Assembly (NCBI GenBank): GCA_965116875.1
Contig: OZ220733.1
Span: 4,096,001 to 4,160,000, forward strand
Length of the DNA: 64,000 nt
Source: Candidatus Latescibacterota bacterium
GTDB taxonomy: Bacteria; Latescibacterota; UBA2968; GCA-2709665
Reading direction: 5' to 3'
How positions within the stretch are numbered: position 1 is the stretch's first letter; each line of letters starts with the position of its first letter. The notes under the pieces are model-generated. The model ran no database searches. It was not told the DNA's origin and saw nothing but the letters and a program-made list of their open reading frames with translations. The translations under genes and the position numbers were made by a program. Shown piece after piece: positions 54,596 through 59,149 of the stretch.

Positions 54596-54939
54596 GAGTG
54601 GATTATCCGTTCTTGCCGAGACCATCAGGATTGTCCTGTTTCACTTTGACGGAGACTTCACTGGCGGTGACCGCTGTCCGCCTCTCTGAAGAGGCGACCG
54701 GTCTTTCGGATTTCCCGCGGCTGGATGCTGAAGGCGTAGCGCGCAGCGATTGGCGCCTTCGGCTGTGTGGCGATTTTCATGTCGGACGATGTCTCACGGT
54801 CGGGCTGGCTATTCGACGCTTGAGTATCCGGTTCGGTTTCTGAAAACCGGCTTCATCTGATCGAATTAAACACCTGATTATCAATTATATAGCCCGTTGG
54901 GACAGAAAACAGTCCAAGCGCGGCGTCCAGGCAGCATAA

Positions 54940-54971
54940 GAAAAAACACGCCGGTAGCAGCGTGTTTTTTC
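54940..54971. terminator. Bidirectional intrinsic terminator closing the redoxin operon
   Basis: GAAAAAACACGC-CGGTAGCA-GCGTGTTTTTTC. Confidence 0.8.
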
Positions 54972-54995
54972 TGTTCCGATTTACCCTGCCTGAAC

Positions 54996-55973
54996 TTATG
55001 GCACGCTCTTGCCGAAGTTCTTGGCGAATTCAAGAAAATCCGTGAAGTCGACCAGGCCGTTTCCATCCAGGTCGAAGGTCGGGTTGTCGGTGCTGAAGGC
55101 CTGGGCGAAGGCGACGAAGTCGCTGAATCCGATTTGTCCGTCATGGTCGAAGTCGGCCCGGGGATTGAGGGGTACAACGATGACCGCTCCGGAAACAGCG
55201 AGCGTGATGCTTCTGTTTTCCGGATCGTCGCTCAGGATTGTCAGGTTGCCGGAGAAGGGTCCGGATTCCGCCGGAGTGAATGTGATCGCCACTCTCGCGC
55301 TGTCTCCTGCCGCGACCGTTACCTCGGTCGTGTTAATAGAGATTTCCTCGAGATCGGATTGAATGTTGCTGATCGTGAGCGATTCTCCTCCGGTATTGTA
55401 CACGACCAGGGTGAGCGTTTTGGATACTCCGGCTGAAACGTCCTCGCCAAAGTCGAGTGAAGGTTTCGAAAGATCGATCGCCGGCGGCGGAACGCTCAGC
55501 AGTTCCCGGATACGCGCGGCCGTTGCGGTGATTGACGCAGGTTTTCGTATCCCGATGTGACGGATAATGCCCTTGCGGTCCACGACAAGCGTATGGTCAA
55601 CGCCGAGAGTTCTCGGAAACGCGCGGCCGGCCCGGAGGAGAAGCGGGAACGTGACACCGGTGACTCTTTGAAAGTCCCGCAGTTCCGATTTGCTGCCATT
55701 GTAGACGTCGAGTCCCAGAACCGTCAGGCTGTCATCCTGGAACGCCCTCCAAATCTGTCTTTCTATAGACGGACCCGTCTGTCTGCACAGGTCTCAGTTA
55801 TGGCCCAGGTAGTAGAGCACGAAGACGCGCCCCATGTAATCTGCGGGCGTGTAGGTCTTGTCATCCAACCCCGTGAGCGAGAAGGTCGGTACTGTGTCGC
55901 CGACCTTCTGAGCCCGTGCAGACGCAGGCGCGAAGAGTCCCAGAATCACTGCGGCAATCAAGGGTCGGTACAT
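54996..55973 (-). CDS. Secreted putative selenoprotein B: redoxin (UDLC) + Ig-like domain + dockerin/EF-hand-like tail, 325 aa; TGA at 55796-55794 (codon 60)
   Basis: RBS gaaagagg; signal peptide MYRPLIAAVILGLFAPASARA-Q; VGDTVPTFSLTGLDDK...VLYYLGHN-TGA-DLC; frame open on both sides of the TGA. Confidence 0.85.
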
Positions 55974-56027
55974 GGGATACCTCTTTCAGGAAGGGAAAGT
56001 CCTGCGGGTGTATACGCCCGGGGAAAC

Positions 56028-57011
56028 TCATGGCACGCTCTTGCCGAAGTTCTTGGCGAATTCGAGGAAGTCCGGGAAGTCGACTACGCCGTTCCCATTC
56101 AGGTCGAAGGTCGGGTTGTCGGTGCTGAAGGCCTGGGCGAAGGCGACGAAGTCGCTGAATCCGATTTGTCCGTCATTGTCGAAGTCCGCCCGGGGATTGA
56201 CCGGGACTACGATGGCGGTTCCGGAAATCGCGACGGTAACGGTGCCCTTCTCCGGGTCGTCGCTGGAAATGGTAATCGTCCCGGAAAACGGACCGCCCTC
56301 CGTGGGCGTAAAGGTGATGTCGACGGTAGCGCTGTCGCCCGGTGCGACCGTAAGTTCCGTCATGCTGAACGTGACGCCCTCCAGGTCGGACTCCAGGTTC
56401 GTAATGCTGAGGTCCTCCCCTCCCGTATTCTTCACGACGAGGGTTACGGTCCTGGTTTCGCCGGCCGGAACGTCCTGGCCGAAGTCGAGCGAAGTACCTG
56501 GAACATCGATTGCCGGCGGCTGAACGGTCAGCAATTCCCGGACGCTCGCCGCCGCTGCGCTGAGACCGGAAGCGCCGCGCCCGATGTGACGGACAATCCC
56601 TTCGCGGTCCGCGACCAGCAGAGTGTGGGTCCCGTGAGATCCCCTGATATTGCCTGCCTGAAGCAGGAGGGGAAACGAGATCGTGGACACGGACTGAAAA
56701 TTCCTGAGCTGAGCCTGACTGCCATTGTAGATGTCAAGTCCCAGGACCGCAAAGCCGTCATCATCCTGGAACGCCTTCCAGATCTGTTGTTCTATGGACG
56801 GACCCGCCGCCCGGCAGGTCGGTCAGTTATGGCCCAGGTAGTAAAGAGCCAGAACACTTCCCTCATAATTCGCGGAGGCATAGGTTTTGCCGTCCAGCCC
56901 CGTAAGCGAAAACGTTGGTACCGCGTCACCGACGTTCTGGGCTTCCGCGGGCCCGCCCGGGCAAAACCCCAGGACCAGCAGGAACACGACGCAGGCAGCG
57001 ATTCGACCCAT
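56028..57011 (-). CDS. Secreted putative selenoprotein A: redoxin (UPTC) + Ig-like domain + dockerin/EF-hand-like tail, 327 aa; TGA at 56825-56823 (codon 63)
   Basis: RBS aaaggagg; signal peptide ending AEA-Q; VGDAVPTFSLTGLDGK...ALYYLGHN-TGA-PTC; ORFs 56823-57011 and 56028-56690 share a frame with no other stop. Confidence 0.85.
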
Positions 57012-57045
57012 TGCAATCCTCCTTTGAGATGGTGTGTGGTCTGCG

Positions 57046-58629
57046 TCAGAAATAGGTCTTCAGACGCATTTCAAGGCCATTGAACGGCAACACGAGATAG
57101 CATGTCCCGGATGTGCACGCGGCGCCGCCTCGCCTGCGGCCGGCGAATACGAAGGCTTCGTATCGATCGAGAAAGGCGACGTTCAGGTTGACCGACAGCC
57201 AGGAACGAGCCCCGGTCTCGACCCGGTCCGGCGTTGCGCCGTCATCCACTTCGAATGGATCGTTGGTGCGATCCAGTATGACTGCGGCGCCCACACCCGA
57301 GGGATGCTGGAAGGAAAACTGGGTAAAGACGTCCTGGAACACCGGCTGGTTTCGGGGCTGCCTGGCCGCGCGCCGGACCTGCAGATCGAAACCCAGGACA
57401 GACCCTCCGGGTGTAATGGATTCGACCCCCACACCGCCGATCCGGTGCATTCCGATTCCCTTCAGTTCGTCTTTTCCCCAATCAAAAAAGACGGTAGACG
57501 TCAAGCTGTGCCCGCCGGGCTGCCGAGGCAGTTCAACGTCCACGCCCAGATACCGCTCGTTGAACGTCGTTGAAAAGCCGGGCGCCAGTTCGTTCTCTCC
57601 CTTGCTGACGTTTGCCGTCAGCGTGCCCAGTCCGAAAATCGAATACGTTGCTTCCACCTGGTAGCCCGTTTCAGCATCGGCAATCAGGGCATGCGTGGAC
57701 CGGTTGAGCAGGACGGCCGCGTGTTCGCGGACCAGGGACGGGGGATCGTTGAAGCTGTAGGCGAATTTCTCATAGTCCTTGTATTCCAGGCTCAATCCCA
57801 GATTGGAAATGCCGGCGTTGGCCGAAAGATACAGAGCGCTGCCGTCCACGTGCGCGTCAATCAGCCCGGCGTATTCGGCGTAGACGGTCGCATAGCCGTC
57901 CGGAAAGCCCGATGCTTCAATTGCGGGCGTGACGTCGAATTCCAGAAAACCCGACCACGTTCGCGTGGAGTCAATCCTGGCGGCGTGATGGCTTACGGCC
58001 GTGACGCCGGCCTTGATCCGGCTCGTCGGTCGCAGCGAGACTTCCCCTCCGAGAAGCCAGTTTTCACGCCGTGGTACGTCCCGCAGAGGATCACCCACCC
58101 GCACCGCCGGCGGGATGTCGCTTAATACTGGACGGCCGATCAGGGCTTTTGCCTCGGCCCGGGGACCCGCCCAGGTGGCCATGCCGCCCTCGAGGTCTCG
58201 GGACGGCGAATAGCGGCGCCGGTATTGTCCGCTCTCCAGAACGACGCCAGGCAGATCGAAGGCCCTGAGCGTGATGCCGCGACCCAGGATGGCGTAGTAG
58301 TTGCCCGCAACCAGCTCGACCGGTCCCTGCGACCAGCGCAGGTGCTTCTGGGAAACATGCACGACCTGGTATTCAACCTGCGACAGCGGCGAGCCGGGAG
58401 CGGTGTTGCGCCATGCATTGAAAATCTCTGCCCGTAGTCCGGCCTGAAGACCGTGCCGCGTGTAATCGACGTCGAACTGCTCATAAAGTGACGAAACCGC
58501 CAGCGAGTCCGAGCCCGGGACGCGTCCCCGCTGGATTTCGGTCAGGCTGGATACGGTCACCTGCGCGACGACAGGCTTCGACGTCGCCAGCAGAAGGAGC
58601 ATTATCAGGCTATTGGTCAGCGCTCGCAT
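57046..58629 (-). CDS. Outer-membrane beta-barrel-like protein with C-terminal CxxGxC (DUF6029-like)
   Basis: Signal peptide ending VVA-Q; AGNYYAILGRGITLR, LEYKDY, PPSLVREH, GGAACTSGTC, terminal LEMRLKTYF. Confidence 0.75.
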   Translation of the reverse strand: MRALTNSLIMLLLLATSKPVVAQVTVSSLTEIQRGRVPGSDSLAVSSLYEQFDVDYTRHGLQAGLRAEIFNAWRNTAPGSPLSQVEYQVVHVSQKHLRWSQGPVELVAGNYYAILGRGITLRAFDLPGVVLESGQYRRRYSPSRDLEGGMATWAGPRAEAKALIGRPVLSDIPPAVRVGDPLRDVPRRENWLLGGEVSLRPTSRIKAGVTAVSHHAARIDSTRTWSGFLEFDVTPAIEASGFPDGYATVYAEYAGLIDAHVDGSALYLSANAGISNLGLSLEYKDYEKFAYSFNDPPSLVREHAAVLLNRSTHALIADAETGYQVEATYSIFGLGTLTANVSKGENELAPGFSTTFNERYLGVDVELPRQPGGHSLTSTVFFDWGKDELKGIGMHRIGGVGVESITPGGSVLGFDLQVRRAARQPRNQPVFQDVFTQFSFQHPSGVGAAVILDRTNDPFEVDDGATPDRVETGARSWLSVNLNVAFLDRYEAFVFAGRRRGGAACTSGTCYLVLPFNGLEMRLKTYF

Positions 58630-59149
58630 CGGCGTTCGCCCCGTCGTCGGCGCCGGGTTCGGGAAACAGCGCCTCGACTGCCGTCAGCAACACTTGGGCG
58701 TTTTTCGAATGATATCCGACCTGCCGCAGCGCAATCTCTCCGTCCGGGGTGATCAGGAGCGTCGTCGGCAGGACGTTCACCTGCATTCGCCGCATGACCG
58801 CGCTGTCAGAGTCGAGGACGATCGGGAAGTTGACCTTTCTCGCCCGCAGAAAGGGTTTCACACGGTTCTGCCCACGCGGCCCGTCCACGTTTACGCCAAG
58901 TACGGTAAGCCCTGATTTGCCGTACTTCTCGTGAATCTTCTGGAGCTTGGGCATCGCCTTGACGCAAGGCTTGCAGTAGGTCGCCCAGAAATCCAGAAGT
59001 ACCGGACCCTTTGTCAGCAGGTTTTTGAGGTTGACGCGTTCGCCCTGCAGGTCCCGGAGGTTGAAGTCGGGGGCCGAGGCGGCGTTCAGCGTCGCTGCGC
59101 CCAGGGAAATTGAGGCGGCGATGGTCAGGGTATGAACGATCGTCTTCAT
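58610..59149 (-). CDS. TlpA/ResA-family exported thiol-disulfide oxidoreductase
   Basis: Signal peptide; APDFNLRDLQG, LDFWATYCKPC, cis-Pro loop VLPTT. Confidence 0.92.
   Translation of the reverse strand: MKTIVHTLTIAASISLGAATLNAASAPDFNLRDLQGERVNLKNLLTKGPVLLDFWATYCKPCVKAMPKLQKIHEKYGKSGLTVLGVNVDGPRGQNRVKPFLRARKVNFPIVLDSDSAVMRRMQVNVLPTTLLITPDGEIALRQVGYHSKNAQVLLTAVEALFPEPGADDGANADASADQ

What the first reader, a model, noticed from the sequence alone, without database searches (positions are those of the whole stretch)
56028..57011. Hidden selenoprotein A: in-frame TGA gives a UxxC active site
The 62-aa and 220-aa ORFs are one frame broken only by TGA at 56825-56823. Read through, LALYYLGHN-U-PTC aligns with LLDFWATY-C-KPC of the neighbouring TlpA, so the TGA occupies the nucleophilic Cys position. 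The thioredoxin fold continues downstream (AVLGLDIY, FPLL, LLVADREGIVRH). UxxC in thioredoxin-fold proteins is an established selenoprotein signature.
Basis: partly seen in the sequence, partly recalled or inferred. Interest (0 to 1): 0.85.

Follow-up and report, generated by a model that had tools for sequence, protein, structure and literature searches.

The report
Unannotated selenoprotein gene pair, Latescibacterota
Two neighbouring genes of an uncultured sponge-associated bacterium each encode an exported redox protein whose active-site residue is selenocysteine, written as a TGA "stop", which is why databases list only truncated versions.

Summary
The observation and the selenoprotein reading both hold.

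- **Gene A** (57011-56028, minus strand) is one 327-codon frame broken only by TGA at 56825-56823, giving LGHN-U-PTC.
- **Gene B** (55973-54996), not in the finding, is a 65%-identical tandem paralog with TGA at the same codon.
- **Sec machinery:** the genome has selA, selB, tRNA-Sec and a TGA-containing selD.
- **Homologs:** among 37 distinct homologous domains from relatives, 35 have TGA and 2 have Cys at that column. In 149 more distant relatives, 162 of 167 aligned domains have CxxC there.
- **SECIS:** a hairpin with a GGUC loop lies at +22 to +25 after the UGA. It shows covariation and fixed synonymous sites.
- **Protein:** signal peptide, TlpA/ResA-like thioredoxin-fold domain, Ig-like choice-of-anchor D domain and a dockerin-like tail.
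- **Databases:** all 21 protein hits are truncated forms.

Thioredoxin-fold UxxC selenoproteins are an established kind, so this is a new, unannotated member. It is common across the phylum: 108 of 168 genomes. Function and selenium incorporation are inferred, not shown.

The parts
56028..57011 (-). Gene A: 327-codon selenoprotein CDS including the terminal TGA stop. Start ATG at 57011.
   Evidence: dN/dS 0.10-0.27 upstream of the TGA in 11 of 11 ortholog pairs
57018..57023 (-). AGGAGG Shine-Dalgarno-like sequence 6 nt upstream of the gene A start
   Evidence: read directly from the sequence
56823..56825 (-). In-frame TGA of gene A, read as selenocysteine U63 (first position of UPTC)
56796..56809 (-). 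SECIS-type hairpin of gene A. Stem is columns 18-21 with 26-29 (GGCG/CGUC). Apical loop GGUC is at 56804-56801, which is +22 to +25 from the U of UGA.
   Evidence: synonymous-site fixation
56940..57011 (-). Predicted signal peptide of A (residues 1-24, ...PAEA|QN). Called from the sequence pattern and the model only.
   Evidence: sequence; N-terminal helix 3-15, low pLDDT; no signal-peptide predictor was available
56571..56933 (-). TlpA/ResA-like thioredoxin-fold domain of A (residues 27-147) carrying U63-x-x-C66
56217..56513 (-). Ig-like beta-sandwich of A (residues 167-265): choice-of-anchor D / DUF1573 / ASH-HYDIN type
56043..56189 (-). C-terminal dockerin-like double EF-hand tail of A (residues 275-323; NCBIfam dockerin_GC)
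   Evidence: 29.5 bits against cut-off 29; 32.6 bits, the best match in the genome
54996..55973 (-). Gene B: tandem paralog of 325 codons plus TAA stop, 65% identical to A, same domain order
55794..55796 (-). In-frame TGA of gene B, read as selenocysteine U60 (UDLC)
55767..55780 (-). SECIS-type hairpin of gene B (AGACG / CGUCU, loop GGUC at 55775-55772)
54939..54972 (-). Strong terminator-like hairpin with A and U tracts just after gene B
   Evidence: -29.3 kcal/mol, z -6.15, 0 of 200 shuffles as stable. The consensus scan did not list it.
57046..58629 (-). Upstream gene: DUF6029 protein (527 aa) with a signal-peptide-like N-terminus and a C-terminal Phe. It overlaps the TlpA gene by 20 nt.
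   Evidence: synteny
58610..59149 (-). First gene of the apparent operon: ordinary Cys-type TlpA/ResA-like protein (WATYCKPC)

Best explanation
Genes A and B are real selenoprotein genes. SelB with Sec-tRNA(Sec) reads the in-frame UGA as selenocysteine. It is directed by a small hairpin with a GGUC apical loop placed 18 nt after the UGA.

Each product is exported through an N-terminal signal peptide. It consists of a TlpA/ResA-like thioredoxin-fold domain with a U-x-x-C redox centre, an Ig-like choice-of-anchor D domain, and a dockerin-like tail that probably fixes it to a cell-envelope or surface partner.

Inferred chemistry: the selenolate of U63 (U60 in B) attacks an oxidised substrate, either a disulfide or a sulfenic acid. 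C66 resolves the mixed selenylsulfide into an intramolecular Se-S bond, and a thiol donor then reduces that bond.

Shown in silico: the reading frame, the Sec/Cys pairing, the hairpin, the machinery and the fold. Inferred: selenium incorporation, location, substrate and electron donor.
For: **Frame and paralogy**
- One frame is broken only by TGA in A and in B. The two are 65% identical.

**Sec machinery**
- selA scores 549 bits against a cut-off of 268, and selB 373.5 against 242. tRNA-Sec scores 73.4 bits, and ARAGORN calls it SeC with anticodon tca. selD scores 366 bits with one TGA inside, giving U-A-A-K.

**Sec/Cys pairing**
- 35 of 37 distinct homolog domains have U and 2 have C at the same column.
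- 162 of 167 aligned domains of 149 distant representatives have C..C there.

**Purifying selection**
- Selection acts on both sides of the TGA. dN/dS is 0.10-0.27 upstream and 0.14 or less downstream, in 11 of 11 pairs.

**Hairpin**
- The hairpin is columns 17-21 with 26-30, with loop G22 G23 U24 C25. 84% of cells are paired against 25-47% for slid controls, and 0 of 500 shuffles reach the covariation score. Pair 18-29 is GC in 24 sequences and CG in 3. Pair 19-28 is GU 15, AU 9, GC 6.
- The loop Gly codon is GGT in 33 of 35 sequences, although GGT is only 16% of Gly codons in this genome. The Pro codon is CCG in 34 of 35.
- selD of the same genome has a CAGUCC-GGUC-GGACUG hairpin at +21 to +24.
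- The E. coli fdhF SECIS has G23 and U24 in its apical loop (passage in PMC8659212).

**TGA as a stop, and sequence accuracy**
- TGA is the commonest ordinary stop: 1319 of 2344 long frames.
- Contigs of four runs read the TGA unchanged.

**Fold**
- The AF2 model has mean pLDDT 82.7, and helix 64-81 starts right after U63.
- Foldseek finds 2ls5 and ResA with target TM about 0.8.
- In PDB sequence alignments U aligns with the first Cys of CxxC.

**Export and electron supply**
- 91 of 149 nearest Cys-type relatives carry a T9SS sorting tail.
- The dockerin_GC match is over its cut-off for A and B.
- A DsbD/CcdA-type membrane electron carrier is encoded elsewhere in the genome.
Against: - There is no direct evidence of selenium in the protein and no proteomic data. 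The single RNA-library contig across the UGA does not prove transcription.
- The hairpin lies in coding sequence for a conserved Gly-Pro, so part of its conservation is protein-level. Its stem is short (4-5 bp), and column 17-30 is unpaired in 20 of 30 distinct sequences.
- A stronger alternative hairpin (columns 6-13 with 18-25) exists in this genus, although it has no covariation.
- No Rfam family matched.
- A naive search for 'TGA plus GGU-loop hairpin' gave 43 genome hits. All six others that I tested were non-genes or lay upstream of real starts. The hairpin pattern alone is therefore weak evidence.
- The canonical cis-Pro of TlpA-type proteins is not conserved: H129 aligns with it, and relatives have H, D or E there. 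The chemistry may differ from TlpA.
- If the protein sits outside the outer membrane, no reductant is evident.
Confidence: 0.88

Rival explanations
1. Same selenoprotein, different chemistry. The domain acts as a peroxidase (Prx/GPx-like), using the selenolate to reduce peroxides at the cell surface, rather than as a protein disulfide reductase or isomerase.
For: - The best Pfam match is AhpC-TSA, not Redoxin or Thioredoxin.
- The cis-Pro expected in TlpA-type oxidoreductases is absent.
- Weak matches exist to thiol peroxidase and glutathione peroxidase models.
- Foldseek also lists Bcp peroxiredoxins, with target TM about 0.7.
- Relatives are secreted to the surface, where no DsbD-type reductant is obvious.
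Against: - U occupies the first position of the motif and Cys the second. Selenoprotein Prx is listed as TxxU, and 'Prx-like thiol:disulfide oxidoreductase' as UxxC (Table 1 passage of PMC13188914).
- The closest solved structures by sequence and fold are TlpA/ResA-type, with target TM about 0.8.
- Peroxiredoxin and peroxidase NCBIfam models score far below their cut-offs.
Confidence: 0.2
2. The UGA is recoded, but by near-cognate read-through or another tRNA that inserts Trp or Cys rather than selenocysteine.
For: No experiment here distinguishes which residue is inserted.
Against: - Full Sec machinery is present, and selD itself needs Sec decoding.
- A SECIS-type hairpin with the same loop as selD's follows the UGA.
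- Homologs alternate only between TGA and Cys codons at a redox CxxC site.
- TGA is the main ordinary stop codon of the genome.
Confidence: 0.03
3. The TGA is a true stop. The locus would be a pseudogene, a sequencing error, or two separate genes (a 62-aa peptide plus a choice-of-anchor D protein), as public annotation has it.
For: All 21 database proteins found start downstream of the TGA and are named choice-of-anchor D domain-containing protein where they are named at all.
Against: - The TGA is kept at one codon in two paralogs, in 35 of 37 homolog domains and across 108 genomes of the phylum.
- The 5' piece is under purifying selection in frame.
- The Pfam domain and the predicted fold run across the TGA.
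- The 62-aa piece alone would be a thioredoxin fold cut just before its active site.
- Contigs from several runs agree on the TGA.
Confidence: 0.02

Closest known systems
Predicted bacterial thioredoxin-fold UxxC selenoprotein families. [quoted passage not shown] I saw passages only.
   Same: PF00578 and PF08534 matches over their cut-offs, a UxxC motif with Sec in the first position, a Cys-containing homolog family, and a bacterial SECIS immediately downstream.
   Different: - I could not fetch the example accessions, so direct homology to those named families is untested.
- No NCBIfam selenoprotein model hits the Sec domain at E <= 0.01.
- The fusion to choice-of-anchor D and dockerin-like domains, and the phylum Latescibacterota, do not occur in the review's text: 0 occurrences of Latescibacter, dockerin and choice-of-anchor.
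TlpA/ResA-type extracytoplasmic thiol-disulfide oxidoreductases (B. subtilis ResA 1su9/1st9; B. thetaiotaomicron 2ls5; Geobacter 3kcm)
   Same: Thioredoxin fold with a central insertion. Target TM is about 0.8 and rmsd about 2.2 A. The redox motif sits at the N-terminus of helix 1.
   Different: - Sec replaces the nucleophilic Cys.
- There is no conserved cis-Pro.
- Scores are far below the ResA subfamily cut-off: 32-38 bits against 170.
- Ig-like and dockerin-like domains are added.
Unnamed Cys-type family of about 260-aa TlpA-like proteins with a T9SS type A sorting tail (representatives P0031-P0173)
   Same: These are the nearest full-length relatives, at 30-49% identity. They share the motif context (F/L)FxxG-x-x-C-P-x-C-x-x-x-x-P, and 162 of 167 domains have C..C at the U..C columns. 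One Cys form (P0030) has the same redoxin, choice-of-anchor D and dockerin_GC order.
   Different: They use Cys, not Sec. 91 of 149 end in a T9SS tail rather than a dockerin-like tail. Their organisms are not named by the tool.
E. coli fdhF SECIS element
   Same: An apical stem-loop whose loop holds G23 and U24 counted from the U of UGA (passage of PMC8659212). Here the loop is G22 G23 U24 C25 in at least 90% of 35 sequences.
   Different: The stem is shorter and there is no conserved bulged U17; column 17 is C, A or G. SelB binding was not tested.
M. tuberculosis DipZ C-terminal region (2hyx)
   Same: A thioredoxin-like domain followed by a beta-sandwich domain in one exported polypeptide (Foldseek rank 3).
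   Different: The overall superposition is poor (TM 0.35, rmsd 19 A). DipZ has Cys and no dockerin-like tail.

Membership tests
Bacterial selenoprotein gene (SelB/SECIS-decoded UGA) | In-frame UGA with conserved coding sequence on both sides | tested here: met
   dN/dS 0.10-0.27 upstream and 0.14 or less downstream in 11 of 11 pairs
Bacterial selenoprotein gene (SelB/SECIS-decoded UGA) | Homologs with Cys at the UGA position (Sec/Cys pair) | tested here: met
   2 of 37 close homolog domains have CPVC; 162 of 167 domains of distant representatives have C..C
Bacterial selenoprotein gene (SelB/SECIS-decoded UGA) | Stem-loop just downstream of the UGA with G in the apical loop at SelB-compatible spacing | tested here: met
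   GGUC loop at +22 to +25 with covariation; the same loop in selD of this genome. In silico only; no Rfam match.
Bacterial selenoprotein gene (SelB/SECIS-decoded UGA) | selA, selB, selC and selD in the genome | tested here: met
   all are over their curated cut-offs
Bacterial selenoprotein gene (SelB/SECIS-decoded UGA) | Selenium physically present in the protein | not testable with these tools
   needs 75Se labelling or mass spectrometry
TlpA/ResA-like thioredoxin-fold oxidoreductase (PF08534 / PF00578 / cd02966) | Profile match over the curated cut-off | tested here: met
   AhpC-TSA 40.6 and 46.8 bits (cut-off 26); Redoxin 28.2 and 33 bits (cut-off 26.6). The NCBIfam ResA subfamily model is far below its cut-off.
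TlpA/ResA-like thioredoxin-fold oxidoreductase (PF08534 / PF00578 / cd02966) | Thioredoxin fold with the C/U-x-x-C motif at the start of helix 1 | tested here: met
TlpA/ResA-like thioredoxin-fold oxidoreductase (PF08534 / PF00578 / cd02966) | Conserved cis-Pro loop facing the active site | tested here: not met
   The Pro of LPTT in the neighbouring TlpA aligns with H129. No conserved Pro lies in that stretch of alignment A2. This was judged from alignments only, not from coordinates.
Peroxiredoxin (Prx, PF00578 sensu stricto) | Peroxidatic Cys/Sec in the second position of T-x-x-C/U | tested here: not met
   The motif is U-x-x-C. The review lists Prx selenoproteins as TxxU. Peroxidase NCBIfam models are below cut-off or absent.
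Named selenoprotein family 'Prx-like thiol:disulfide oxidoreductase' (review Table 1) | Direct sequence relationship to the family's reference protein | not tested
   The reference accessions could not be fetched with these tools. Only the domain (PF00578) and the motif (UxxC) agree.
GC-type dockerin domain (NCBIfam NF041540) | Profile match over the cut-off (29 bits) | tested here: met
   A: 29.5 bits and 32.6 bits. B: 26.7 bits and 29.7 bits. Pfam gives only EF-hand matches.
GC-type dockerin domain (NCBIfam NF041540) | A cohesin-type partner that binds it | not tested
I did not check it.
Choice-of-anchor D domain (NCBIfam NF012200) | Profile match over the cut-off (45 bits) | tested here: met
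   53.4 bits (A) and 49.3 bits (B)

The most novel reading that the evidence does not exclude
These are surface-displayed selenoenzymes. A Sec-containing redox domain would be carried on an Ig-like stalk and plugged by a dockerin-like tail into a cohesin-type scaffold outside the cell. This is the Latescibacterota counterpart of the T9SS-secreted Cys redoxins of related bacteria. Selenium would have been chosen because a selenolate works, and resists irreversible oxidation, in an oxic extracellular setting without a dedicated reductant. That would make it a dockerin-borne extracellular selenoprotein, expanded phylum-wide.
Probability: 0.3. Interest if true: 0.65.

Novelty: new member of a known kind. 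Interest (0 to 1): 0.42.

Why it matters
**Annotation.** A whole family in Latescibacterota is cut at the Sec codon in public protein sets. It has matches in 108 of 168 genomes, and nearly all listed matches carry one TGA. All 21 database hits are truncated, so the redox domain is invisible to function prediction.

**Selenium biology.** The finding adds a little-studied, uncultured, sponge-associated phylum to the Sec users. It gives a clean Sec/Cys family pair in which the Cys forms are secreted proteins. This is useful for asking why Sec replaces Cys outside the cytoplasm.

**SECIS.** The element has the same loop position as the E. coli one, so a heterologous read-through test looks feasible.

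**Limits of the novelty.** The kind of protein, a thioredoxin-fold UxxC selenoprotein, is well known.

Tried and rejected
- **Rfam.** A scan of 54900-57100 at E <= 10 gave no SECIS family, only two chance sRNA hits.
- **Alternative hairpin.** The more stable hairpin right after the UGA (columns 6-13 with 18-25; -28 kcal/mol in A) was rejected as the conserved element. It shows no excess pairing or covariation over shuffles.
- **Second hairpin.** A hairpin about 44 nt downstream in A is not kept in the other family (sequences) and was dropped.
- **Genome-wide pattern scan.** I searched for TGA plus a 4-bp stem and a GGU-loop, with at least 30 open codons on each side. This gave 43 hits, of which only selD, A and B are credible. 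Of six others tested by Pfam, five had no family. One was a DegT aminotransferase whose match starts after the TGA. The scan is not specific and gives no selenoproteome.
- **BLASTP.** The gene A domain against the neighbouring TlpA is not significant. hhalign was needed.
- **Terminator scan.** The consensus scan did not list the hairpin after gene B. Folding shows it.
- **The listing of cluster members.** It was switched off, so source names and organisms of the Cys-type relatives are unknown.
- **Read laying.** Only assembled contigs were available. Parts of the stretch have no cover in X3 and X5, which says nothing. The RNA-library contig 56774-56971 is not proof of transcription.
- **Literature.** 'selenoprotein' plus 'Latescibacter' found 3 papers, 2 of them listed. 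In the one I opened (PMC8318568, passages only), the two words are unrelated. I found no description of this family. Supplements and the BSepDB database itself were not seen and may list such genes.
Full report
**1. Observation**

On the minus strand, 57011-56028 reads as one frame of 327 codons plus a stop. The only interruption is TGA at 56825-56823, which is codon 63. The 62-aa and 220-aa ORFs of the plain ORF list are the two halves. The local sequence is LALYYLGHN-U-PTCRAAGPS.

An AGGAGG lies 6 nt before the ATG.

Pfam's AhpC-TSA and Redoxin models match across the TGA and score over their gathering cut-offs.

**2. A second copy**

Fifty-four bases downstream lies gene B (55973-54996). 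It has the same build, is 65% identical, and has TGA at the equivalent codon: LYYLGHN-U-DLC, at 55796-55794. Two paralogs that have diverged by a third of their residues both keep the TGA.

**3. Machinery**

- The window's genome is one 5.45-Mb contig.
- It carries selA, selB and a tRNA-Sec (anticodon tca) side by side at C1:184347-187783.
- selD lies at C1:1070717-1071640 and contains one TGA. It reads ...TCG-U-AAK..., the UxxK motif that the review lists for selenophosphate synthetase.
- TGA is nevertheless the commonest ordinary stop, closing 1319 of 2344 open frames of 400 codons or more. Gene A itself ends in TGA. The code is therefore not reassigned.

**4. Relatives**

I searched 41 genomes of the same order in six frames with the read-through protein. 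Almost every match that covers the N-terminal domain has exactly one TGA.

From the 41 stored loci L024-L064, I extracted every domain hit of at least 91 query residues. I dropped L025, which covers the same DNA as L024, and I dropped exact duplicates. Of the 37 distinct domains that remained, 35 have U and 2 have Cys (CPVC) at the same column. One Cys form lies close to Sec forms in the same locus (G020, locus L055), and the other lies on the same contig as a Sec form (G018, locus L052).

Across the phylum, 108 of 168 genomes have a match to the domain at E <= 1e-10. Reading the listed rows by eye, 6 say 'none', 1 says 'TAA', 1 says 'TGA + TAG', and all others say '1 TGA'. Another 21 matches were not listed.

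Record titles of close relatives name Candidatus Latescibacterota MAGs. A few of the same genus are labelled Gemmatimonadota.

**5. Sec/Cys pair at greater distance**

A full HMMER search of 1.84 billion representatives with residues 25-165 gave 2212 hits at E <= 0.001. I re-aligned 149 of the best 150; the other, P0012, is a truncated form already found. Of 167 aligned domain stretches, 162 have C..C at the U..C columns, 2 have A..C and 3 are partial.

Of these 149 proteins, 91 carry a T9SS type A sorting tail and 5 a choice-of-anchor D domain. One (P0030, 49% identical) has the same redoxin, choice-of-anchor D and dockerin_GC order, but with Cys.

**6. The RNA signal**

I aligned the 45 nt from the UGA in the 35 Sec genes. 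The alignment has no gaps. Columns 20-22 and 25-26 are invariant, and columns 23, 24 and 27 are at least 90% conserved.

The conserved hairpin pairs columns 18-21 with 26-29. In some sequences 17 also pairs with 30. The apical loop is G22 G23 U24 C25.

- 84% of cells pair, against 25-47% when partners are slid by 1-3 columns.
- 0 of 500 shuffles reach the covariation score.
- Pair 18-29 switches between G-C (24 sequences) and C-G (3).
- Pair 19-28 is G-U, A-U or G-C.

The more stable hairpin that RNAfold prefers in gene A (columns 6-13 with 18-25) has no such support.

The loop overlaps a conserved Gly-Pro, so protein constraint contributes to its conservation. But the synonymous sites are fixed too:

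- The Gly codon is GGT in 33 of 35, and the Pro codon is CCG in 34 of 35.
- The third base of the preceding codon is G in 35 of 35.
- GGT makes up only 16% of Gly codons in this genome's long frames.
- dS just after the UGA (0.16-0.57) is lower than before it (0.50-0.93) in 10 of 11 ortholog pairs and about equal in one.

The genome's own selD has CAGUCC-GGUC-GGACUG with the loop at +21 to +24.

A review passage describes the E. coli fdhF SECIS as a 17-nt upper stem-loop (nt 15-31) with G23 and U24 in the apical loop and a bulged U17 (PMC8659212, one passage read). The loop position matches. The bulged U does not, because column 17 here is C, A or G.

Caveats: the sequences are related, the stem is short, Rfam has no match, and the bare pattern is common in this GC-rich genome.

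**7. Not an error**

- Contigs of two runs with no differences span both TGAs.
- A contig of a third run (labelled sponge metagenome) and a 198-nt contig of an RNA library (labelled sponge metatranscriptome) span the gene A TGA without differences.
- One of the DNA runs may be the source sample, and RNA libraries can hold DNA.
- Conservation in other assemblies is the stronger argument.

**8. The protein**

| Residues (gene A) | Feature | Evidence |
|---|---|---|
| 1-24 | Looks like a signal peptide: basic start, hydrophobic core, AEA then Q. No predictor was available. B has ARA then Q. | |
| 27-147 | TlpA/ResA-like thioredoxin fold | see below |
| 167-265 | Ig-like sandwich: choice-of-anchor D over cut-off; DUF1573/ASH/HYDIN; Foldseek HYDIN and CEP192 PapD-like domains | |
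| 275-323 | Double EF-hand, dockerin-like tail; NCBIfam dockerin_GC over its cut-off for both genes in the six-frame search | |

For the thioredoxin-fold domain:

- PDB sequence matches (2ls5, 3hdc, 3or5, ResA) put U on the first Cys of CxxC.
- The AlphaFold model, built on a 25-sequence alignment, has mean pLDDT 82.7. Helix 64-81 starts right after U63.
- Foldseek gives 2ls5 and ResA with target TM about 0.8.
- The usual cis-Pro is not conserved. The Pro of the neighbouring TlpA's LPTT aligns with H129, and relatives have H, D or E there.

The genome has 107 six-frame matches to the query, nearly all to the tail. It has 28 matches to dockerin_GC, 7 of them over the cut-off, and 19 T9SS sorting tails. 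I did not test the cohesin.

**9. Context**

The gene order on the minus strand is:

1. A Cys-type TlpA (58610-59149).
2. A DUF6029 protein that overlaps it by 20 nt (57046-58629).
3. Gene A.
4. Gene B.
5. A strong hairpin with a U tract (54939-54972; z -6.15).
6. tilS, ftsH and folP.

The order TlpA, DUF6029, Sec gene, TilS is kept in 14 of 14 loci with 3-kb flanks (L065-L078). DUF6029 also sits next to the Sec gene in four loci of other genera of the family (L051-L054). It was not seen in the 1.5-kb flanks of loci L055-L064, which come mostly from the second family.

A DsbD/CcdA-type membrane protein is encoded elsewhere, at C1:1968881-1969501.

**10. Mechanism and rivals**

The most likely reading is SelB-directed Sec insertion. 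The product would be an exported thiol-disulfide (selenylsulfide) oxidoreductase, held at the envelope or surface by its tail.

A peroxidase-type chemistry is the main rival for function. In its favour are the AhpC-TSA best match, the missing cis-Pro and the surface location of relatives. Against it are the UxxC order and the closest structures being TlpA/ResA-type.

Non-Sec read-through and a true stop or pseudogene are very unlikely (sections 3-7).

**11. Known or new**

A 2026 review lists many predicted thioredoxin-fold UxxC selenoprotein families, among them Prx-like thiol:disulfide oxidoreductase (PF00578), thiol-disulfide isomerase-like (cd02966), redoxin family (PF08534) and a UGC-containing TlpA family. 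I read passages of Table 1 in PMC13188914. The kind is therefore known.

The following appears to be unrecorded in what I could search:

- No NCBIfam selenoprotein model hits the Sec domain.
- All 21 proteins found in a 5.8-billion-protein set are truncated forms of 197-317 aa that cover at most 47% of the domain. Where they are named, the name is choice-of-anchor D domain-containing protein.
- The review text has no occurrence of Latescibacter, dockerin or choice-of-anchor.
- The paper searches found no description of this family.

I did not see supplements or the BSepDB database, and I could not compare with the reference accessions of the named families.

**Verdict:** a genuine, unannotated member of a known kind. 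Two features are of note: its surface-anchoring modules and its spread across the phylum.

Noticed in passing
G000:C1:1070717-1071640 (locus L012:1501-2424); TGA at C1:1070744: The genome's selD is itself a selenoprotein gene (...TCG-U-AAK...). Its SECIS-type hairpin is CAGUCC-GGUC-GGACUG, with the loop at +21 to +24.
   Followed up: partly
G000:C1:184347-187783 (loci L001, L007, L016): selA, selB and tRNA-Sec lie side by side on the minus strand.
   Followed up: partly
whole genome G000; tails such as window 56043-56189 and 55011-55157: More than a hundred open frames share the C-terminal dockerin-like tail. There are 107 six-frame matches to the query, most of them to residues about 260-327, and 28 matches to NCBIfam dockerin_GC, 7 over the cut-off. 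The genome also has 19 T9SS type A sorting tails. Two export or anchoring tags therefore coexist.
   Followed up: partly
window 56620-56640 (residues about 125-131 of gene A); alignment A2: The family lacks the cis-Pro that faces the active site in TlpA/thioredoxin-type proteins. H129 (H, D or E in relatives) aligns with the Pro of LPTT in the neighbouring TlpA.
   Followed up: partly
loci L052 (G018:C97) and L055 (G020:C1): Cys-form (CPVC) and Sec-form paralogs lie close together in the same locus. One Cys form (L055) still has a GAACG-GGCC-CGUUC hairpin at the SECIS position, which suggests a recent Sec-to-Cys change or the reverse.
   Followed up: no
loci L056, L057, L061, L063 and rows (for example G088:C14, G090:C1): In the second family of the order, the Sec domain heads much longer open frames (up to 1417-1695 aa). 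These carry several Ig-like repeats before the dockerin-like tail.
   Followed up: no
window 57046-58629: The DUF6029 protein has a signal-peptide-like start and ends in ...LKTYF, which looks like an outer-membrane barrel. It is always next to the Sec gene in this genus (14 of 14 loci) and in four loci of sister genera. It could be part of the same system.
   Followed up: partly
loci L068, L070, L072: Three MAG records carrying 87%-identical orthologs are titled Gemmatimonadota, while ten of the other eleven are titled Candidatus Latescibacterota. This is probably a labelling inconsistency in the public records.
   Followed up: no
window 54939-54972: A very stable hairpin is flanked by an A tract and a U tract, so it looks like a bidirectional terminator. 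It lies between gene B and tilS, and the consensus scan missed it.
   Followed up: partly
window 56765-56782 (minus strand, +44 to +61 after the UGA of gene A): A second 7-bp hairpin (CUGGAAG...UUCCAG) in gene A is only partly kept in B and not in the other family. Its meaning is unknown.
   Followed up: partly
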